Source: an uncultured Alphaproteobacteria bacterium (GTDB lineage: Bacteria; Pseudomonadota; Alphaproteobacteria; Rhizobiales; Xanthobacteraceae). Taken from it: a stretch of DNA of 64,000 nucleotides. Position 1 is the first letter of the stretch; each line of letters opens with the position of its first letter. The notes under the pieces are model-generated. The model did not search any database. It was not told the origin of the DNA and was given only the letters and a program-made list of their open reading frames with translations. Location of the stretch: NCBI GenBank assembly GCA_963796195.1, contig CAWCKS010000005.1, positions 99,191 to 163,190 of the forward strand. The letters are read 5' to 3'. The position numbers and the translations under genes were made by a program. Below, piece by piece: positions 14,456 to 57,295 of this stretch.

Positions 14456-16108
14456 ATGGATCAGGATCACGAGCACGATCTCGACCGACGTGAGTTCACC
14501 ATTGGCTTCCTGACGGCGAGCTTTGCCGCGCTTGCGCTGCGTCCGACCACCGCCGACTGCGGCGACGGAAAGCCCCAGCACCGCGGTGCTCGACCAGCCC
14601 TGGGCGGTCTGGGACAAGAACGCCAAGCCTGTGCGCGGCGGCATCTTCCGCGTCGCGACCGAGCAATACATCGGCAAGATGAATCCCAATCACTGGCCGG
14701 TGCTGGACTGGGTCACGATGGGCTATTTCCACGAGCGGTTGATGTTTACGGACGGCAACTACAACCCGACCGTGCCGTGGCTCGCCGAGAAGCTGAGCTG
14801 GGAGACGCCGCAGGACGTCGTCATGAAGCTGCGCGAGGGCGTCACCTTCCACGACGGCTCGCCGTTCGACGCCAAGGCCGTGAAATATCAGATCGACTGG
14901 ATCCGCGATCCCGCGAGCAAGACATGGGATGCGGGCTGGCTCGCCCAGCTCGATACGGTCGAGGTGGTCGACGACAGCACGCTGCGCTGGAAATTCAAGA
15001 CGCCGTGGGCCGGCTTCACCGGCGTCATGGCCAATGTTCCCGGCTACGTGTTGTCGGCGAAGGCGTTGCAGGACGATGTCGACAAGTATGACGTTCAGCC
15101 GCAGGGCACGGGCCCCTTCATGCTCGAGGAGGCGAGCCCCGGCAATTTCGTCAAGCTCAAGCGCAATCCGAACTGGTGGTTCGCCAAGGCGAGCGGCAAT
15201 CCCGACATGCCGTACTTCGACGGCATTCTCGTCACGATCATTCCGGACCCGGCGGTGCGGCTCGCCAACCTGCGCGCGGGCAAGATCGACGTGCTTGTGC
15301 TGGACAAATCGCAATACTCCGGCCGCCAAGACCGATCCAGAGCTCAACGTCTACCGCTTCCCCGGCAATCACGTCGCCGCGGTTCGCTTCAACATCACCA
15401 AGAGCGTGTTCCAGGACATTCGTTTGAGGAAAGCGGTCAGCCATGCGATCGACCGCCAGGCGCTGATCGCCGGCACGCAGTTCGGTCTCGCGCGGCTGGC
15501 GAGCTGCATGTATCCGGACGACCACTGGTGTCATAATCCGAACCTCAAGCCGGTGGCCTACGATCCAGACATGTCGAAGAAGCTGCTGGCCGAGGCCGGC
15601 TACGGCTCAGGTCTCACCGTGAAGGGCTACTGGAACAACACGACGATGGGGCAGACCGTCGCCGAGGCGATCAAGGGTATGCTGGCGCAGGTCGGCATCG
15701 ACTGGCAGGTCGACCTGATGCCGCCGGCCGCGCTTGCAACACGTATGCAGAAGGCGGACTATGACCTCGCCGCGGGCGGCTGGATCTTCATCTATGACCC
15801 CGATCTGATGCCGACCGGGCTCTACCATCCGGACAGGCGGTTTCAATTTCGGGCGCAGCAAGAACGACGCCGCGATCGCGCTGATCGAGGCCGGGCGCCA
15901 GGAAGTCGATCTCGACAAGCGTAAGGCGATCTACTGGCAGCTCGAGGAGGTCTTGTACAACTCCTACGAGGACGCGTGGCTGTGGTGGGAGGAAACCGCG
16001 ACCGCCTATCGCAAGCAGGTGCAGGGTTGGGACCACGAAGGCTTCCTGAAATACAAGGACGTCTGGTTCTGGGCGCACCCGTTGTGGTTCAAGGATGGCA
16101 AGGCGTGA
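14456..16108 (+). pseudogene. ABC transporter substrate-binding protein, family 5 (peptide/nickel), Tat signal; at least 3 frameshifts
   Basis: The SBP_bac_5 protein can be reconstructed across three reading frames (ORFs 14456.., 14523..15536, 14929..15924, then the frame ending 16108). RR-motif signal at the N-terminus. Confidence 0.7.
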
Positions 16109-29021: not shown

Positions 29022-29118
29022 GCTCCCTCCTCCGCTGATCCATCTCTCTTTTCAGGTCGATGGATCGCGAGGTCAAGCCGCCAAGGACGCCGCAGCAGGT
29101 CGATTTTCGGCGCTCGGG

Positions 29119-29772
29119 CTAATTTGCGACGGCCCGCGCGAGCTTCCGCGGCGGCAGCGTCTTCAACAGCGCCTGCTCCAGTGTCACCGCCGTCTTGATC
29201 GTCTGACGCTCCAACATCCGCGCAAGATAGGTAGTGAGCGTCGGCCACTGGCCAAGCTCGACGCCACCATATTTCAGCAGCAGCAGAGCCCAGGCGAGAT
29301 AGCCGTCCGCGATCGTGAAACGTTCGCCAACGACGTATTGCCGCTGTTGCAGATGGTTTGCCACGATCGTTACGTTCTGATTGATACGCTGGCGTGCCGC
29401 GGCCTTGGCGGCATCGTTGTCATACCAGAAGGTCGGAAACAGAAACGCCTTGTGGATCTCGGTGCCGATGAAACTCAACCATTCCTGCAGGCGATAGCGG
29501 TCGGGAGCACCAGCCGGCGGTGCAAGAAGAAGCTCTGGTTTCAGGTCAGCGATGTATTGAAGCACAGCGGCACTCTCGGTCAGACGCTCGCCACTGTCGA
29601 GTTCCAGTACTGGCACCGCGCCCTTCGGAGCGACGTCGAGAAAGTCGCCGCCGCTTGCGACAAGCTTCTTTGTGAAAATATCCACGAGCTCGTAACGAGC
29701 ATCGATGCCGGCTTCCATCAACGCGATCCGGCTCGCGAGCGAACAGGCCAGGGGGTAGAAGTAAAGCTTCAT
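29119..29772 (-). CDS. Glutathione S-transferase
   Basis: MKLYFYPLACSLASRIALMEAG N-terminal thioredoxin fold. GST_C. Confidence 0.8.
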   Translation of the reverse strand: MKLYFYPLACSLASRIALMEAGIDARYELVDIFTKKLVASGGDFLDVAPKGAVPVLELDSGERLTESAAVLQYIADLKPELLLAPPAGAPDRYRLQEWLSFIGTEIHKAFLFPTFWYDNDAAKAAARQRINQNVTIVANHLQQRQYVVGERFTIADGYLAWALLLLKYGGVELGQWPTLTTYLARMLERQTIKTAVTLEQALLKTLPPRKLARAVAN

Positions 29773-29905
29773 CATGGTGGGTGATGTCCTCAAAGATCGG
29801 AAATTGCGTTGAGGATAGCTGGCGAATATCCTGCTTTCACGCAGGACTATTGCAGCGAATGGCTGCGGATTTGCAGGAGGTGCGCGATCACGCTAGAACG
29901 GTGCC

Positions 29906-30748
29906 ATGAACTGGGACGATCTCCGCATCATCGCGGCCGTGCACGAGGCCGGCAGCTTTGCCGGCGCCGGCACGTCCTTGCGCGTCGACGAGACGACGGT
30001 GGCGCGGCGGCTGTCGCGCATCGAGCGCGCGCTGGGCTTGCGGCTGTTCGAAGCGGTCGACGGCCGGCGCAAGCCGACGGCGCAATGCGAGGCCGTGCTG
30101 GCGCATGTCCAGGCGATGGCTGGTCAAATTGCCGCGATCGGCAAGATCGGCGCGAAGGGAGCAGGGCTCACCGGCCGCTTTCGCATCGCGAGCACGCACA
30201 CGATCGCCGAAGAATTTCTTGCGCCACGCGCCGGCGTGTTCCTCTCACGCAATGAAGGCTTGGCACTGCAATTCCTGACTTCGAGCGACAACGTAAAATT
30301 CTCGCGCTGGGAGGCGGACTTTGCGATCCGGCTGCGCAAACCGGAGAAGGGTGATTTTACGATTTCGAAGCTCGGCGAGCTCGCGCTCTACTTCATCGAG
30401 CCGGCAACCGATGTGGTCGAAAACCCGATCGTGTGCGGTTACCCGGACATGCTCGACCTCATTCCGGAGGCGCAATTCCTCGAGAGCCGCGGCTTGAAAG
30501 AAGGCTCGCGCTGCATCACCGACAATGTCCGCGTCATCCACGCGCTGCTGCAATCGCATCGGGCGGTCGGCATCCTGCCCGACTATTTGTGTGGCGCGCT
30601 GCTTGCCGATCGTCGCCTGCGCCTGACCGAGTTGAAGCGGCGGCGCGAGATGTGGCTTCTGGTGCAGAACCATCTCAAGCGCGATGGCGCCGCGCGTCTC
30701 GTTATCGACTGGATCCGCGACGGCTTTTCCGATCTCTCACGCGGCTGA
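29906..30748 (+). CDS. LysR family transcriptional regulator (divergent from GST)
   Basis: N-terminal wHTH MNWDDLRIIAAVHEAGSFAGAG...VDETTVARRL. LysR substrate-binding domain. Confidence 0.8.
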   Translation: MNWDDLRIIAAVHEAGSFAGAGTSLRVDETTVARRLSRIERALGLRLFEAVDGRRKPTAQCEAVLAHVQAMAGQIAAIGKIGAKGAGLTGRFRIASTHTIAEEFLAPRAGVFLSRNEGLALQFLTSSDNVKFSRWEADFAIRLRKPEKGDFTISKLGELALYFIEPATDVVENPIVCGYPDMLDLIPEAQFLESRGLKEGSRCITDNVRVIHALLQSHRAVGILPDYLCGALLADRRLRLTELKRRREMWLLVQNHLKRDGAARLVIDWIRDGFSDLSRG

Positions 30749-30997
30749 GCTTTGTCGCTGGCAGTCGGTGAACTGAATTGCCAGCGCGTTGCGCGAATGC
30801 AACGCCATGGTGGCACGCGACAAATCTTTCATTGAGCCACTTGCGTGCACCTTCGAATTGCCCTATGAGCCGCGTCCCTTGCATCGGCCTCGTGTCCGGG
30901 TTCTGAGCCCGGCTGGCGCGATCCGCACTGCGGTGTTCGTGTTCCGCTGATGTCTGGGAGACCGGCCTGTCTGCCCTGAAAGCAAATGGCCGCAACC

Positions 30998-31070
30998 GCA
31001 AGGATAGCTCAGTTGGGTAGAGCAGATGAATTTAATCATCGTGTCGCGGGTTCGATTCCCGCTCCAGTGC
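30998..31070 (+). other. tRNA-like element: intact D-arm and T-arm, but acceptor stem unpaired (3/7) and 6-nt anticodon loop; pseudo-tRNA or integration-site remnant
   Basis: TAGCTCAGTTGGGTAGAGC and GCGGGTTCGATTCCCGC are canonical. The 5' gcaagga versus 3' tccagtg do not pair. Anticodon arm is gatga-atttaa-tcatc. Confidence 0.4.
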
Positions 31071-31403
31071 TCCGGTTTAGCCTGAAAAGCTAAATTCCTC
31101 TGAAGGGGACCGGACGCGCAGTTTCAGTCGCTGTCCGGTCGTCGTGCCCAAAAGGCATTCCGTCCGAACAAAGACACCGTGAGACCGGCTTGCGCCGGGG
31201 CGGATACCGCCTGCGCGTGACGTCGGGTCCGCCGTTCGCTGATGCCGCGCTCGCACGGCGGGCGCGAACGCGCGAGCCCAACGCTGCGCGTGGCTCAAGC
31301 CGCGGCCCGTCGGGCTTTGCGGGAAGCACGCGTCCGGGACCTGTCCTCGCAGCAATGAAGCAAACCGCGCGAGCGTTTCGCGCGGCAACGAAGGAGACGT
31401 GTC

Positions 31404-32597
31404 ATGACCTGGCAGGTACTGATGCGAACGGTGACCGTGAAGGACGACGAGCGCATGCTGGTGACGCGCAACGGTCGGCTTGTGCGCGTGCTCGAGCCGG
31501 GGCTGCATCGCTTCATCGATCCGCTGCGCAAGCTGACCTTCGAGACCTTCAAGGTCATCCGCGGCGAGCTGCCGCTCGAGCGCTACCTCGTGCTCAAGCA
31601 GGCGCTGCCGGACGAGGCCGCGCGCCTGGTCGAGCCGGTTGAGACCGGCGCCGACGAGGTCGCGATCGTCAGCCTCGACGGCCGCCCCGTGCATGTGCTC
31701 TCGCCCTGGCAGGCGCGCGTGTACTGGAAGGTGGCGACGCGGGTCGATGTCGAGCGCATCGACGTCGCGCGCAACCCGAAGGTGACGCCGCGGCATCTGG
31801 CGATGCTGGACCGGGCGCGCACCACCTACGATCCGTCGGTGAGCATCGCCACGCGTGTCGCGCCGCAGCTCGTGGCCGAGACCGTGGTCGAGAACCACGA
31901 GGCCGGCCTGCTCCATGTCGAGGGCAAGCTGGTCGAGCGACTGGCGCCGGGTCGGCACGCCTACTGGACCGTCGGCCGCAAGGTCGAGGTCAAGCGGCTC
32001 GACCTGCGTCCGCAGGCGGTCGAGATCACCGCGCAGGAGATGCTGACCAAGGATCGCATCGCGCTGCGGGTGACGCTGACCGCGCTGCGCCGGATCGTCG
32101 ATCCGGAGCGGGCGGTGACGGCGCTCGCCGACGTGGATGGCTGGCTGTACCGGCTGGTGCAGTTCGCGATCCGTGAGGCGGTGGCGTCGCGCACGCTCGA
32201 CGAGGTGCTGTCGGCGAAGGGCGCGCTCGATGCCGAGCTGCGGAGTTACGTGCGCGAGCGCGTCGCCGACAGCGGCATCGAGGTGGCGGAGCTCGGCGTG
32301 AAGGACGTGATCCTGCCCGGCGAGATCCGCGAGCTCGTCAACAAGGTGGTGGAGGCGGAGCGGACGGCGAAGGCCAACCTGATCCGCCGCCAGGAGGAGA
32401 CCGCGGCGACGCGGTCGCTGCTCAACACCGCGAAGCTGATGGAGGACAACCCCCTCCTGCTTCGGCTGAAGGAGCTCGAGTCGCTGGAGCGGCTGGTGGA
32501 GAAGGTCGGCCGCATCGACCTGCACGCCGGCAACGAGCAGGGCCTCGACGCGCTGCTCACGCGTCTCGTGCGGCTGAAGGCCGGCGAGAGTGCCTGA
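31404..32597 (+). CDS. SPFH/band-7 domain protein (slipin-like, internally duplicated SPFH lobes)
   Basis: 397 aa. Coiled-coil C-terminus with ...AERTAKANLIRRQEETAATR.... Bidirectional terminator follows. Confidence 0.65.
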   Translation: MTWQVLMRTVTVKDDERMLVTRNGRLVRVLEPGLHRFIDPLRKLTFETFKVIRGELPLERYLVLKQALPDEAARLVEPVETGADEVAIVSLDGRPVHVLSPWQARVYWKVATRVDVERIDVARNPKVTPRHLAMLDRARTTYDPSVSIATRVAPQLVAETVVENHEAGLLHVEGKLVERLAPGRHAYWTVGRKVEVKRLDLRPQAVEITAQEMLTKDRIALRVTLTALRRIVDPERAVTALADVDGWLYRLVQFAIREAVASRTLDEVLSAKGALDAELRSYVRERVADSGIEVAELGVKDVILPGEIRELVNKVVEAERTAKANLIRRQEETAATRSLLNTAKLMEDNPLLLRLKELESLERLVEKVGRIDLHAGNEQGLDALLTRLVRLKAGESA

Positions 32598-32604
32598 CAA
32601 AAAA

Positions 32605-32636
32605 GAAGGGCCGCGTTCGCGCGGCCCTTCGACTTT
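32605..32636. terminator. Bidirectional rho-independent terminator
   Basis: gaagggccgcg-ttc-gcgcggcccttc, an 11-bp stem flanked by A-run and T-run. Confidence 0.65.
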
Positions 32637-32654
32637 CCGGAGGTCCGGGTTTTC

Positions 32655-32827
32655 AGCCGCCGGTTTACTTCAGCGAGCTGTTGATCGAGTTCGAACTTGT
32701 TGCTCAGCGTTGTGCCGAGCGTATTGACCGCAGTGATGATCGCAAGCGCAATGCCTGCAGCAATCAACGCGTACTCAATTGCAGTCGCGCCGGATTCGTT
32801 GGAAAGAAACCGCTTAATCAGTTGCAT
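32655..32827 (-). pseudogene. flp: Flp family type IVb pilin (orphan), 1-nt frameshift near the 3' end
   Basis: MQLIKRFLSNESGATAIEYALIAAGIALAIITAVNTLGTTLSNKF is a canonical Flp motif. The expected ...NSINSSLK-stop is in the -1 frame (extra g in ttcgaac). Confidence 0.7.
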
Positions 32828-32976
32828 GTCATGCCCCTTTCGGTACGGCCAGTCAGCTGGCTGTCGCAAATAAGCAGATGCGACTTACCTGATCGTGTTC
32901 CAGTAGGAGCGATATTTGTTAAAATTTTGCCAATCCGCCGCGCTGCGTGGTTAGCGCACGTCTTTGATTCCGCACG

Positions 32977-33944
32977 TCAATTTCGCACGAAATAAAGCGG
33001 CGTGCGCAGCGTGAGCAGGAAGGCGGGCTTCGGCGTCCAGTCGATTTCGGCGGTCATGCCAAACAAACGGTTATCGCTGTCGTCGAGACGATCGAGGTCG
33101 AAGCGCAGGATCGGTCCGCTGAAGGGTTTGACCTGGGCGAGGCCGGCGATATTGGCGCCGCCGAAGGACTGAAAGCCGGCGCGTCCGGTGAGCTTCCAGT
33201 TGTCTGGCCATTGATAGTAGGCGCCGAGGTAGCCGATCACGGCCGGGTTCACTTTCGCAATGTCGGTGTCCACCGACACGGTGGTCACCTGCACACCGCC
33301 GAGCAGTCCCCTCGTTTCATCTTCGTCAGCGCATAGTCGGCCTCGACAACCGTCGTGTTCGAGGTCGTCGCTGTCGGACTTTGCGGAACGACGCGCGTGA
33401 AGGTCGACTGCACTGTGATGGTCGGAAAGTATCCGCCGTTCTGCTGGTAGATGTCGGCCTGCACGCCGACGTTCCAGCTCGCCACCGTGAACGGCGTCCA
33501 CGGTGACATGCCGGTCTGCGAGGTGCTTGCGGTGAAGCCGCCATAGAGCGACACGGCGTCGCTGATGTCGACGGTCAGCGGGACTTCCAGCGCTGCGCCC
33601 TGGCTCGACGGCAGCGAGGCATTCACCTGCGACAGGATCGCCAGCGGCGTAAAGCTCGTGAAGCCGAGCGAGAGCGTACCCGTGGGAAGCTTTGCGTAGT
33701 TGGTCCGGAGGTCGAGATAGATGTTCGGCAGGCTCGACGCTGGTTTCTTTGCGGAAATCATCGTCGTCGTCGCCGCCGAATGCGAGGTTCGGCAGCGAGC
33801 TGCAGAGCCAACGAGAGCACGACAGCGCCGGTCGAACGCGACAAGCAGGATACCAGGTCCGGACAGCCAGGGTCTGTCTTTTCTATAGCAGAAGCGACGG
33901 CGGCTAAATGCCAAAACAAAGAAACCCGACACGACGAGGGCCAA
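32977..33944 (-). pseudogene. Outer-membrane beta-barrel transporter-family protein (MetA-pathway/phenol-degradation-like OMP), frameshifted
   Basis: Two overlapping ORFs (33285..33944 and 32977..33501) with alternating beta-strand pattern ending in an aromatic-rich C-terminus. N-terminal region is also disturbed. Confidence 0.45.
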
Positions 33945-34085
33945 GCTGATCCGCCGCCATGAGGAGACCGCGGCGATGCATTAGCTGCTCAACTGCGAAG
34001 CTGGTGGAGGGCGACACCGCCTGCTTCGGCCGAAGGAGCCCCAGTCGCTCGAGAGGCTCGTGGAAAAAGTCGGCCGGCTCGAGGG
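33941..34085. repeat. Degenerate ~145-bp direct-repeat copy of the SPFH gene 3' end (matches 32372..32520 at ~80% identity); ghost of a second SPFH copy
   Basis: Aligns position by position with the SPFH codons for ...ANLIRRQEETAATRSLLNTAKLMEDNPLLLRLKELESLERLVEKVGRID. Carries an internal stop. Confidence 0.7.
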
Positions 34086-34159
34086 AATTGCGAAACGTAT
34101 CGCTCGATGGGATTGATCTACGTTCTTCGAAGGCCTGATGTCGCTACTTGTGCAAAACA

Positions 34160-34192
34160 AAAACCCCGGCATCGCTGCCGGGGTTTCCGCAT
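34160..34192 (-). terminator. Rho-independent terminator of groESL
   Basis: On the minus strand: ggaaaccccggcagcgatgccggggtttttgtttt. Confidence 0.6.
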
Positions 34193-34217
34193 TCTTGAGT
34201 TCGCGTCGAGCGCTGGA

Positions 34218-35860
<1,643 letters not shown>

Positions 35861-40815: not shown

Positions 40816-41340
40816 TCAGGCAGCAAACACTTTGCCGCCGGTCAAGAGCGGCGACAGGATGAAGGTGACAGCGGCTTGCGTCGCCACCGCCTGCTTGATC
40901 GAGCGGTCGACGATGAACTCCAGCGCCTCGATGTCGGTGATGGTATGGTGCTCCATGGCAAGCGAATCCAGCACCGGGCGCATGGTCCGGCACACCAGCG
41001 CCTGGCCGAAGTTGAATTCGCCGAGCGTGCCGCGCTCCGAGACGAACATGATCAGCGGAATTTGATAGGGCACCGCGAGCGAGGCCAGCGCGTTGGCAAG
41101 CGTGGCAAAACCCGAGGTTTGCATCAGCACCGCGCCGCGCACGCCGCCCATCCAGCCGCCCGAGACGATGCCGACGGCTTCTTCCTCGCGGGTGGTCGGG
41201 AAGGTCGTGAAATACGGATCCGCGTGCAGCTTGGTGATCAGACTGCCCAGGACCTTGTCCGGCACATAGGGCAGGAGGCGGACCTCGTTCTGCTTCAGCG
41301 TGTCGAGGACCACCTGGTCCCAGCGGTGCTTCTCAGGCAT
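40816..41340 (-). CDS. TPP-dependent decarboxylase alpha subunit (ComD-like)
   Basis: TPP_enzyme_N: TREEEAVGIVSGGWMGG...AVLMQTSGFATLANAL. Confidence 0.65.
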   Translation of the reverse strand: MPEKHRWDQVVLDTLKQNEVRLLPYVPDKVLGSLITKLHADPYFTTFPTTREEEAVGIVSGGWMGGVRGAVLMQTSGFATLANALASLAVPYQIPLIMFVSERGTLGEFNFGQALVCRTMRPVLDSLAMEHHTITDIEALEFIVDRSIKQAVATQAAVTFILSPLLTGGKVFAA

Positions 41341-57205: not shown

Positions 57206-57295
57206 GCGGGCATGGCGAAACTGGTAGACGCAAGGGACTTAAAATCCCTCGGTTCGCAAGAGCTGTGCCGGTTCGAACTCCGGCTGCCCGCACCA
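57206..57295 (+). tRNA. tRNA-Leu (anticodon TAA), type II with long variable arm, CCA encoded
   Basis: Acceptor GCGGGCA/TGCCCGC. D-arm. Anticodon stem-loop AGGGA-CTTAAAA-TCCCT. T-arm GGTTCGAACTCC. Confidence 0.85.

What the first reader, a model, noticed from the sequence alone, without database searches (positions are those of the whole stretch)
30998..34085. Ghost copy of the SPFH gene 3' end brackets an orphan flp pilin + OMP insertion, next to a degenerate tRNA-like element
Bases 33941..34085 align codon for codon (~80% identity) with the last ~150 bp of the intact SPFH gene (32372..32520) but carry a stop. Between the real gene and this ghost lie a solitary Flp pilin gene (no tad/cpa machinery in the window) and an OMP gene, both on the opposite strand and both frameshifted. 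About 330 bp upstream of the SPFH gene is a tRNA-like sequence with perfect D- and T-arms but an unpaired acceptor stem. Together this looks like a scar of tandem duplication followed by replacement or insertion, possibly tRNA-targeted. No integrase is present.
Basis: seen in the sequence. Interest (0 to 1): 0.55.

Follow-up and report, generated by a model that had tools for sequence, protein, structure and literature searches.

The report
Gene-fragment relic plus tRNA-like leader RNA
The "ghost" is a real but ordinary decaying leftover of a small local duplication of the SPFH gene's end, whereas the "degenerate tRNA" next to it is the front domain of a widely conserved, apparently undescribed ~340-base structured RNA that precedes this SPFH (slipin) gene across many Alphaproteobacteria.

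Summary
Bases 33931-34085 are a 155-bp copy of SPFH 32364-32520: 83% identity, E=1.6e-39, an in-frame TAG and two frame-breaking gaps.

The copy comes from this lineage's own gene and is decaying neutrally. An independent related assembly (L081) shares its left junction. The best model is a 1,567-bp tandem duplication, most of whose second copy was later deleted.

The insertion and tRNA-target reading fails:
- Relatives at 84% DNA identity carry SPFH-flp-OMP intact and have no ghost.
- No integrase or transposase domain was seen nearby.
- The SPFH-groEL spacer varies from 137 bp to 5.9 kb across species.

The flp, OMP and groEL frameshifts are probably assembly errors or very recent. All three genes show strong purifying selection in the corrected frame, and the flp shift is shared with L081 inside a GANTC site.

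The "tRNA-like" element is not a scar. It is the 5' domain of a ~340-nt structured RNA found upstream of SPFH in all 80 orthologous loci. An RNA-only metagenome search gave 120 loci, of which 87 of the 90 long enough to judge had SPFH downstream. On the 80-sequence alignment 46 of 106 pairs show compensatory changes. Its "anticodon" varies freely (31 triplets). Rfam 15 matches only the tRNA part.

The ghost is ordinary. The RNA is the interesting part.

The parts
30999..31347 (+). Conserved structured leader RNA (~340 nt) between the LysR gene and the SPFH gene. It is the larger element that contains the 'tRNA-like' sequence.
   Evidence: nhmmer places one copy at 31000-31347 (268 bits). On the 80-sequence alignment A4, 106 pairs are 93.6% paired, against 35-41% when partners are slid. 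46 pairs show compensatory changes, against 23.8+-2.6 in shuffles. The single-sequence fold has z=-3.3.
31000..31068 (+). tRNA-like 5' domain: D arm, 5-bp 'anticodon' stem with a 6-nt loop, T arm, and only 3 acceptor pairs (GGA/UCC).
   Evidence: ARAGORN calls tRNA-???. Rfam RF00005 scores 40 bits for model positions 5-66. Across 155 distinct homologous units there are 31 different triplets at the anticodon position.
31404..32597 (+). Intact SPFH / slipin-family gene (397 aa).
   Evidence: Pfam Band_7 at 2.6e-32. Sources name close homologues 'slipin family protein'. The best solved relatives are stomatins.
32364..32520 (+). Parent segment of the ghost, SPFH codons ~321-372.
32605..32630 (.). 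Terminator hairpin shared by the convergent SPFH and flp genes. The same hairpin follows SPFH in most orthologues, so the intact copy sits in its ancestral 3' context.
   Evidence: Terminator scan. blastn of 32598-32665 hits the position just after the SPFH stop in many loci.
32665..32827 (-). flp (Flp/Fap pilin) with one extra A near 32691 (GAACTC against GACTC, inside a GANTC site).
   Evidence: Pfam Flp_Fap at 1.4e-17. The indel is mapped against L082 and is shared with L081. Removing one A gives a 53-aa Flp that differs from L082's only near the N-terminus and ends with the same ...NKFDSINSSLK.
32977..33844 (-). Beta-barrel outer-membrane protein gene. Indels at ~33808 (-2), ~33755 (+1 relative to L081, in GATTTC against GATTC) and ~33327 (-1). 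The start codon is TTG after a 3-nt deletion.
   Evidence: 1570 homologues, some carrying PF13505 or named 'opacity protein-like'. Indels mapped. Start codon read from the alignment.
33845..33930 (.). OMP upstream region. It is conserved with L081 (83.5%), and its right edge is the novel junction with the ghost.
33931..34085 (+). Ghost: a neutrally decaying copy of SPFH 32364-32520.
   Evidence: The first ~60 bp and the same left junction are present in L081.
34086..34152 (.). 67 bp with no match in any related locus, lying between the ghost and the groEL terminator.
   Evidence: blastn with word size 7 against all 205 loci found nothing.
34218..35860 (-). groEL, convergent with SPFH. It has two single-G insertions (~35031 and ~35790) relative to L081 and L082.

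Best explanation
Two unrelated things sit side by side.

(A) THE GHOST. In this Bradyrhizobium-related lineage the variable spacer between the convergent SPFH (slipin) and groEL genes is filled by a flp-OMP gene pair. After this lineage split from the L082-type relatives, but before the window and L081 lineages split, a direct duplication copied a unit that began at SPFH codon ~321. The most economical version (inferred) is a tandem duplication of the 1,567-bp unit 32364-33930, which spans the SPFH 3' part, its terminator, flp, OMP and the OMP upstream region. A later deletion left only the first 155 bp of copy 2 in the window. In L081 about 60 bp remain and the rest is occupied by a Yip1/S26-peptidase gene. 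The relic has no function and drifts neutrally.

(B) THE tRNA-LIKE SEQUENCE. It is the 5' domain of a ~340-nt structured RNA inherited vertically with the SPFH gene. It most likely acts in cis as a leader controlling SPFH expression (inferred). Its tRNA-shaped D/T-loop elbow may be a docking site for a tRNA-binding factor.

(C) THE FRAMESHIFTS. Those in flp, OMP and groEL are most likely assembly indels or very recent events, not long-standing gene decay.
For: GHOST
- The match is real: 83% over 155 bp, E=1.6e-39.
- It is of local origin. It shares 14 of 15 states that set the window's SPFH apart from the majority of 80 orthologues.
- It evolves neutrally: 26 differences split 8/8/10 over codon positions, plus a stop and two frame-breaking gaps.
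- It is not an assembly artefact. L081 has the same left junction and the first ~60 bp, with one shared derived base.
- The intact copy keeps its ancestral terminator. It shows no mosaic boundary at codon 321 against L082.
- L082-L084 have SPFH-flp-OMP without a ghost.
- The repeat spacing of 1,564-1,567 bp equals the proposed unit.
- The spacer is a hot spot of change: 137 bp to 5.9 kb in 58 species. Between OMP and groEL there is an abhydrolase gene, or the ghost, or a ghost fragment plus an S26 gene.

RNA
- It is present once per locus in all 80 genome loci, the window and L082/L083.
- Structure counts: 93.6% of cells paired against 35-41% when partners are slid. 46 compensatory pairs against 24+-2.6 in shuffles. 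Covariation score 0.185 against 0.03-0.05.
- An RNA-motif-only scan of metagenomes gave 120 loci. 87 have SPFH starting 242-418 nt downstream, and only 3 clear exceptions were seen.
- L081 lost the RNA and the SPFH 5' part together.

FRAMESHIFTS
- Synonymous codon differences far outnumber non-synonymous ones in all three genes.
- One base restores Flp.
- Other frame-split genes occur elsewhere in the window.
Against: GHOST
- The second junction (34085/34086) and the 67 bp to its right match nothing, so the deletion step is inferred rather than seen.
- I saw no obvious microhomology at the 33930/33931 junction on reading the sequence.
- Only two genomes carry the ghost. Its absence from L082 could be a loss, because an abhydrolase gene sits there.
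- Dating rests on few sites: one shared derived base in 62.

RNA
- No transcript data were available.
- The long-range helix closing the structure (GGAU with GUCC) is invariant, so it is unsupported by covariation.
- The structure was derived from the same alignment it was counted on.
- A cis-regulatory role is inferred from position and linkage only.

FRAMESHIFTS
- Six indels in 3.3 kb is far denser than in the rest of the window, and only two lie in GANTC sites.
- The GANTC/GANNTC statistics do not separate this window from isolate genomes.
Confidence: 0.7

Rival explanations
1. Cassette insertion by homology-facilitated illegitimate recombination or single-crossover (Campbell-type) recombination. 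Incoming DNA carried a donor SPFH 3' end plus flp and OMP. It replaced the native gene end, and the ghost is the displaced native 3' end.
For: Direct repeats of a gene's 3' part flank flp and OMP, whose G+C is lower (53-62% against 70% for SPFH). flp and OMP are absent from all 80 reference-species loci.
Against: The window-L082 comparison shows no break in identity at codon 321; the whole gene is 93-99% identical. The intact copy is followed by the hairpin that follows SPFH in most orthologues. The ghost lacks the last 77 bp of the gene and the terminator that a displaced native end should carry. The ghost shares this lineage's own derived states. L082-L084 have the same gene order and no ghost.
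Confidence: 0.13
2. The ghost is the last remnant of a second, once complete SPFH paralogue that lay between OMP and groEL and has been almost entirely deleted.
For: This cannot be excluded from two genomes. In L081 a different gene (Yip1/S26 peptidase) occupies the site in the same orientation, which shows repeated turnover there.
Against: tblastn of SPFH against 32598-34220 finds only the 155-bp piece. nhmmer finds only one leader RNA per locus. None of 200 related loci has two SPFH copies in tandem.
Confidence: 0.1
3. A genomic island integrated at a tRNA gene. The tRNA-like element is the degraded target, the SPFH repeat marks the other end, and the integrase has been lost.
For: Only the superficial layout: a tRNA-like sequence, a direct repeat, and lower-G+C genes.
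Against: The tRNA-like element is conserved at this site in all 80 orthologous loci and 119 metagenome loci. It covaries as part of a 340-nt RNA and has no conserved anticodon. The repeat derives from SPFH, not from the tRNA-like sequence. LysR, the RNA and SPFH are syntenic across the family. No integrase or transposase domain appears among called genes in the related loci.
Confidence: 0.02
4. The flp, OMP and groEL frameshifts are genuine. The whole 32.6-35.9 kb stretch is a patch of recent, real gene decay.
For: Six frame-breaking indels lie in 3.3 kb, against at least two, probably three, further frame-split genes elsewhere in the 64 kb. The OMP ATG is lost. L081 has its own separate breaks in OMP, groEL and groES. 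Most of the sites are not homopolymers.
Against: Synonymous differences far exceed non-synonymous ones between the window and L081 in all three genes (flp 6:0, OMP 38:13, groEL 44:9). The flp indel is shared by both genomes although flp stayed under selection after their split. That is impossible for an old inactivating mutation. It fits a systematic base-calling error at a methylated GANTC site (the link to methylation is from my own knowledge). The L082 genes are all intact.
Confidence: 0.25

Closest known systems
Gene-fragment pseudogene left by a segmental (tandem) duplication in a bacterial intergenic region
   Same: It is a direct-orientation partial copy of the neighbouring gene's 3' part, about 1.6 kb away. 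Substitutions are spread over all codon positions, and it has a stop codon and frame-breaking indels.
   Different: Nothing essential. Only one junction can be read, and the rest of the second copy is gone.
attL/attR repeats of integrative elements that target a tRNA gene or the 3' end of a protein gene
   Same: A direct repeat of a gene's 3' region flanks genes of lower G+C, with a tRNA-like sequence nearby.
   Different: The repeat is 83% identical rather than an identical core, is internal to the gene and lacks its end. No integrase was seen. The flanked genes are conserved in relatives that lack the repeat. The tRNA-like sequence is not a tRNA gene and lies on the other side of an intact gene.
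Transfer RNA (Rfam RF00005)
   Same: D arm with GG, T arm with UUCGA loop, a 5-bp anticodon-type stem and a variable region. It scores above the Rfam gathering score (40-54 bits).
   Different: The acceptor stem mostly has 3-4 of 7 pairs. The 'anticodon' is unconstrained: 31 triplets, and the loop is 6 nt in the window. The element is embedded in a 340-nt structure and is always upstream of one protein gene.
YrlA / bacterial Y RNA-like tRNA mimics (Rfam RF02553)
   Same: A non-coding RNA in which a tRNA-like D/T-loop module is one domain of a larger RNA predicted to be closed by pairing of distant segments.
   Different: It scores only 23 bits against a gathering score of 69, and only in the two-unit form. 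No Ro60/rsr gene is among the neighbours (GST, LysR, SPFH, groESL, Usg). It is much larger and is tied to SPFH.
Structured 5' leaders (riboswitches, T-box, protein-binding leaders; the yjdF riboswitch has a tRNA-like overall fold)
   Same: It lies directly upstream of one gene family on the same strand, has covarying helices, and ends about 60 nt before the ribosome-binding site.
   Different: No ligand or partner is known. No terminator or clear anti-Shine-Dalgarno switch was identified. It contains a sequence-level tRNA mimic, unlike known riboswitch classes.

Membership tests
Tandem/segmental duplication relic | A second copy in direct orientation near the parent, with similarity above chance | tested here: met
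   Same strand, 1,564-1,567 bp apart, 83% over 155 bp, E=1.6e-39.
Tandem/segmental duplication relic | The copy derives from the resident gene, not a foreign homologue | tested here: met
   14 of 15 lineage-specific states are shared with the window's SPFH. It is closer to that gene (83.1%) than to any of 80 orthologues (at most 80.5%).
Tandem/segmental duplication relic | Both junctions of the duplicated unit are identifiable | tested here: inconclusive
   The left junction (33930/33931) is clear and shared with L081. The right end (34085/34086) abuts 67 bp that match nothing.
Non-functional pseudogene fragment | A neutral substitution pattern and a disrupted frame | tested here: met
   Differences fall 8/8/10 over codon positions. 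There is a TAG stop and two frame-breaking gaps.
tRNA-targeted genomic island | A genuine tRNA gene at the island boundary | tested here: not met
   Mostly 3-4 of 7 acceptor pairs, 31 'anticodons' among 155 homologous units, and it is part of a larger RNA.
tRNA-targeted genomic island | The direct repeat derives from the tRNA 3' end | tested here: not met
   The repeat is SPFH coding sequence. No repeat of the tRNA-like sequence was found.
tRNA-targeted genomic island | An integrase or recombinase gene | tested here: not met
   None among the Pfam-annotated genes within +-8 kb in L081 and L082, nor among the ORFs scanned around the locus.
tRNA-targeted genomic island | The segment is absent from related genomes at the same site | tested here: not met
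   GST-LysR-RNA-SPFH ... groEL-groES-Usg synteny is conserved. flp-OMP is present in L082-L084 without the repeat.
tRNA gene (RF00005) | A cloverleaf with a 7-bp acceptor stem | tested here: not met
   The Rfam match covers only model positions 5-66. 3 of 7 pair in the window, and most homologues have 3-4.
tRNA gene (RF00005) | The anticodon is conserved among orthologues | tested here: not met
   31 different triplets. ARAGORN calls Ile, His, Thr, Gly, Ser or '???' in different species.
Conserved structured RNA | Base pairs maintained by compensatory changes across species | tested here: met
   46 of 106 pairs have changes on both sides (340 cells). 0 of 500 shuffles reach this, and slid controls give 23-27 pairs and 46-98 cells.
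Conserved structured RNA | Transcribed as RNA | not testable with these tools
   No expression data were available. dRNA-seq of B. diazoefficiens USDA 110 would answer this.
Cis-acting leader of SPFH | Constant position and strand relative to the regulated gene | tested here: met
   An RNA-only search gave 87 loci with SPFH 242-418 nt downstream on the same strand, and 3 clear exceptions among the 90 loci long enough to judge.
YrlA (RF02553) | Reaches the Rfam gathering score | tested here: not met
   23 bits against 69, E=0.024, in L027 only. There was no hit in the window.
Tad/Flp pilus locus | flp accompanied by cpa/tad assembly genes | tested here: not met
   Flp_Fap scores 1.4e-17. No T2SSE, secretin or TadB/C families appear among 30 sampled window ORFs or among the neighbours in L081, L082 and the P0007 contig. 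Not every ORF was scanned.
SPFH / slipin (stomatin-like) protein | A Band_7 domain followed by a helical C-terminal region | tested here: met
   PF01145 scores 112.7 bits. Stomatin PH1511 matches at 1e-20 over residues 199-366. The AlphaFold model's pLDDT of 59.9 was too low to use.

The most novel reading that the evidence does not exclude
The ~340-nt RNA (window 30999-31347) is a previously undescribed class of large structured bacterial RNA. A near-complete tRNA mimic (D arm, anticodon-type arm, T arm, one or two units in tandem) is fused to a ~270-nt multi-helix domain. It is functionally coupled to a soluble slipin/SPFH protein across Alphaproteobacteria, including Bradyrhizobium, Rhodoplanes, Dongia and Stellaceae. 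It could be a leader that recruits a tRNA-binding factor to control SPFH synthesis. More speculatively, it could be an RNA partner of the cage-forming SPFH protein. My own knowledge, not tested here: the vault shell protein has an SPFH-like shoulder domain and binds small RNAs.
Probability: 0.5. Interest if true: 0.7.

Novelty: new variant of a known kind. Interest (0 to 1): 0.45.

Why it matters
The ghost matters only as a tidy example of how the spacer between convergent genes turns over, and as a warning. Frameshifts in a long-read-type assembly, and a 'degenerate tRNA', invite an island or pseudogene story that comparative data do not support.

The RNA could matter more.
- SPFH/slipin proteins are ubiquitous, and recent cryo-EM work shows they form cages, yet how they are regulated and what they contain is largely unknown.
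- A deeply conserved 340-nt RNA with a genuine tRNA-shaped domain, locked to one slipin subfamily, gives a concrete handle that can be tested experimentally. It can be mutated, probed or pulled down in B. diazoefficiens.
- It would also add a new architecture to the short list of bacterial tRNA mimics (tmRNA, YrlA, T-box partners).

Tried and rejected
- Exact-sequence look-up of the window's SPFH protein found nothing on record, so the source genome could not be retrieved. Look-up of a Bradyrhizobium OMP homologue (P0064) also failed.
- A more distant OMP homologue (P0015, 62% identity) is not next to flp. The flp-OMP pairing is therefore specific to the close clade.
- I tested for a recombination breakpoint at SPFH codon 321 with sliding nucleotide, amino-acid and third-position identity. 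None was found.
- I tested whether the indels reflect errors at CcrM GANTC sites through GANTC/GANNTC observed-to-expected ratios. The window gives 0.27/1.43, isolate genomes 0.30/1.27 and long-read MAGs 0.28/1.38. The differences are too small to decide.
- PADLOC found no defence-system match for SPFH. NCBIfam gave only sub-threshold HflK/HflC hits.
- The AlphaFold2 model of SPFH from 27 sequences had pLDDT 59.9 and pTM 0.32. I judged it too poor for a fold search and did not use it.
- The tool's RNAalifold run on the gappy 528-column alignment gave a sparse structure. I used a structure computed on gap-trimmed columns instead and counted it on the full alignment.
- A full-length covariance model was not built, because the column and time limits rule out a 340-nt model. 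nhmmer was used to look for extra copies.
- Two regular-expression parses of the tRNA-like unit failed before the third worked.
- A substitution count included non-homologous flanks. It was discarded and redone on the 155-bp core.
- Five keyword literature searches and one paper check found no description of the RNA. This covers only the open-access library held here.


Full report
WHAT IS IN THE SEQUENCE

On the plus strand the locus reads GST (minus strand), LysR, a non-coding stretch of about 650 bp, and then an intact 397-aa SPFH/Band_7 gene at 31404-32597 (Pfam 2.6e-32). Public sources name the close homologues of this protein 'slipin family protein'.

A hairpin terminator follows at 32605-32630. 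On the minus strand come flp (32665-32827; Flp_Fap 1.4e-17) and a beta-barrel OMP gene (32977-33844; 1570 homologues). After these lie the 155-bp ghost and then groEL, groES and Usg.

ARAGORN calls 30997-31070 'tRNA-???' with a 6-nt loop. Rfam's tRNA model matches with 40 bits, but only for positions 5-66, so the acceptor stem is missing.

THE GHOST IS REAL

Window 33931-34085 aligns with 32364-32520 at 82.6-83.1% identity, with a 2-base and a 1-base gap. blastn against the whole window gives E=1.6e-39, and the next-best hit has E above 0.5. The translation carries an in-frame TAG and loses the frame twice. tblastn finds no other SPFH-derived sequence between the SPFH stop codon and groEL.

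WHERE THE GHOST CAME FROM

A scan of one genome per species returned 80 orthologous loci, from Bradyrhizobium, Rhodoplanes, other Xanthobacteraceae, Dongia and Stellaceae. None has a second SPFH 3' copy.

The ghost derives from this lineage's own gene. At the 15 comparable sites where the window's SPFH differs from the majority of those orthologues, the ghost carries the window's state at 14. That includes states found in only 6-10 of the orthologues.

It evolves neutrally. Its 26 differences from the parent fall 8/8/10 on codon positions 1/2/3, whereas the functional orthologues are almost invariant at the protein level here.

CLOSER RELATIVES SETTLE THE CONTEXT

Looking up homologues of the OMP led to two kinds of related contig.

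L082-L084 come from JGI metagenomes and share about 84% DNA identity over 29132-33844.
- They have GST-LysR-RNA-SPFH(397 aa)-Flp(53 aa)-OMP(291 aa)-abhydrolase-groEL.
- All these genes are intact, and there is no ghost.

L081 comes from an ENA assembly and is 92-95% identical.
- It has lost window 29036-32232, which covers GST, LysR, the RNA and the SPFH 5' part.
- It keeps an SPFH 3' remnant, flp and OMP.
- It keeps the same OMP upstream region and the first ~60 bp of the ghost, with the same left junction and one shared derived base.
- A 406-aa Yip1/S26-peptidase gene then stands where the window has 33988-34152.

The ghost is therefore not an assembly artefact, and it predates the split between the window and L081 lineages. 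The two ghost copies differ from each other at 15 of 62 sites, and each differs from the parent at 9 of 62. That fits an origin shortly before the split.

WHICH MECHANISM

- The intact SPFH copy is followed by the same terminator hairpin that follows SPFH in most orthologues.
- Against L082 it shows no change in identity at codon 321; the whole gene is 93-99% identical.
- The ghost lacks the last 77 bp of the gene and the terminator.

These three points argue against a cassette that brought its own SPFH end and displaced the native one. The repeat spacing of 1,564-1,567 bp fits a tandem duplication of the unit 32364-33930, followed by deletion of most of copy 2. That deletion is inferred, because the 67 bp to the right of the ghost match nothing in 205 related loci. 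A decayed full-length paralogue cannot be excluded.

The general setting is a very plastic spacer. The distance from SPFH to groEL ranges from 137 bp to 5.9 kb in 58 species.

THE FRAMESHIFTS

Relative to the intact L082 genes, the window has the following indels.
- flp: +1 base, GAACTC for GACTC.
- OMP: -2 near 33808, a -2 near 33755 (GATTTC against L081's in-frame GATTC, i.e. one extra T), and -1 near 33327. The ATG is also lost.
- groEL: +G near 35031 and +G near 35790.

Counted in the L082 reading frame, the window and L081 differ as follows.

| Gene | Synonymous codon differences | Non-synonymous codon differences |
|---|---|---|
| flp | 6 | 0 |
| OMP | 38 | 13 |
| groEL | 44 | 9 |

That is purifying selection, not decay.

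The flp indel is present in both genomes, yet deleting one A gives a 53-aa Flp whose C-terminus is identical to L082's. An ancient inactivating mutation is therefore impossible. Two of the indels lie inside GANTC sites, the CcrM methylation motif, which is a known source of systematic long-read base-calling error (my own knowledge). Composition statistics could not confirm this.

At least two, probably three, other genes in the window are frame-split: an SBP_bac_5 gene near 15313, a TPP enzyme near 40.8-41.3 kb, and probably an OppB-type permease near 16.8 kb. I conclude that 'both frameshifted' is true of the sequence but is probably not biology. The local density of six indels in 3.3 kb leaves some doubt.

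THE tRNA-LIKE ELEMENT

blastn finds it about 330-400 bp upstream of SPFH in 78 of the 80 loci, and the profile search below recovers it in all 80. The alignment shows invariant D and T arms, a variable 'anticodon' loop, and about 270 nt of conserved sequence downstream. ARAGORN assigns different identities in different species.

Among 155 distinct homologous units:
- there are 31 different triplets at the anticodon position;
- the loop is 7 nt in 149 units and 6 nt in 6 units, the window among the latter;
- mostly 3-4 of the 7 acceptor positions pair.

A consensus structure of 106 pairs, computed and counted on 80 sequences, gives these figures.

| Measure | Observed | Control |
|---|---|---|
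| Cells forming a standard pair | 93.6% | 35-41% with partners slid |
| Pairs with compensatory change | 46 | 23.8+-2.6 in shuffles (0 of 500 reach 46); 23-27 slid |
| Cells with compensatory change | 340 | 96 in shuffles; 46-98 slid |
| Covariation score | 0.185 | 0.03-0.05 slid |

The window's own sequence folds with z=-3.3. nhmmer finds exactly one copy per locus, at 31000-31347 in the window.

56 of 82 loci have a second tRNA-like unit immediately upstream. In L027 this unit scores 41.6 bits against the Rfam tRNA model. The window and L082 lack it.

LINKAGE OF THE RNA TO SPFH

I tested this independently of the protein. A 22-nt motif from the non-tRNA part was scanned against metagenome contigs, and 120 loci were returned.
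- 87 have an SPFH homologue starting 242-418 nt downstream on the same strand.
- 26 are too short to judge.
- 4 are borderline.
- 3 are real exceptions. Two come from one lineage that lacks SPFH, and one has a truncated RNA.

L081 lost the RNA and the SPFH 5' part together.

IS THE RNA KNOWN?

Rfam 15, searched with permissive thresholds, matches only the tRNA model, plus a weak YrlA hit of 23 bits against a gathering score of 69. Keyword searches of the held literature, and a check of a B. japonicum sRNA survey, found no description.

The most likely role is a cis-acting leader. The structure ends about 60 nt before the start codon. It is followed by a covarying hairpin and the Shine-Dalgarno sequence. 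This role is an inference.

VERDICT

The ghost is a genuine but ordinary duplication relic. The reading of an orphan flp+OMP insertion, possibly tRNA-targeted, is not supported. The part of the finding that deserves follow-up is the tRNA-like domain, which belongs to a widespread structured RNA, apparently undescribed, tied to a slipin-family SPFH gene.

Noticed in passing
L027:5522-5589, and the equivalent position in 56 of 82 orthologous loci: Many Bradyrhizobium carry a second tRNA-like unit directly upstream of the conserved one. In L027 it scores 41.6 bits against Rfam tRNA over the full model length, and ARAGORN calls it 'Phe' or 'Thr'. The window, L082, L029 and L059 lack it.
   Followed up: partly
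window 34218-35860 (groEL), near 35031 and 35790: The groEL of the conserved groESL-Usg locus carries two single-G insertions that put 253 codons out of frame. It is nevertheless 96% identical to L081's groEL, with 44 synonymous and 9 non-synonymous codon differences. L081 has its own different breaks in groEL and groES.
   Followed up: partly
window ~15313, ~16800 and ~40820-41330: Other frame-split genes. The SBP_bac_5 profile is split exactly at profile position 180/181 between two frames. A TPP enzyme has its N and C domains in different frames, and an OppB-type permease appears to be split as well. This suggests assembly-wide indel errors or scattered pseudogenes.
   Followed up: partly
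L081:6536-7756 and L081:9381-9629, with the P0007 contig: L081 has deleted GST, LysR, the leader RNA and the SPFH 5' part, leaving an 82-aa SPFH 3' ORF. It carries a 406-aa Yip1+Peptidase_S26 gene between the ghost fragment and groEL. On another metagenome contig (P0007) a 407-aa gene with the same Yip1/Peptidase_S26 domains sits in SPFH's own position next to flp-OMP.
   Followed up: partly
L001-L080, between the SPFH stop codon and the groEL stop codon: The spacer between these convergent genes ranges from 137 bp to 5.9 kb among 58 species and has unrelated contents. One example is a ~248-aa plus-strand ORF common in the B. japonicum group. It is a hot spot of gene turnover inside an otherwise conserved syntenic block.
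   Followed up: partly
window 29036-29131, against L082:7740-8318: L082 and L083 have a HigB/HigA toxin-antitoxin pair between GST and the SnoaL-like gene. The window has only ~96 bp there.
   Followed up: no
L135:1698-2018, L170:1926-2246 and L165:3331-3525: These are the rare loci where the leader RNA occurs without an SPFH gene downstream. Two contigs from one lineage have the full RNA, and one contig has the RNA cut at position ~194. They may be natural SPFH-loss variants.
   Followed up: partly
window 31404-31880 (SPFH residues 1-160): The slipin protein has no hydrophobic anchor on reading its sequence. Its N-terminal ~120 residues are beta-rich and begin with a motif that repeats the start of the SPFH domain (VTVKDDERMLV... 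against VVENHEAGLLHV...). This region is the least conserved part among orthologues, at 28-60% amino-acid identity.
   Followed up: no
window 57206-57295: An ordinary tRNA-Leu (anticodon TAA). It is the only canonical tRNA in the window.
   Followed up: no
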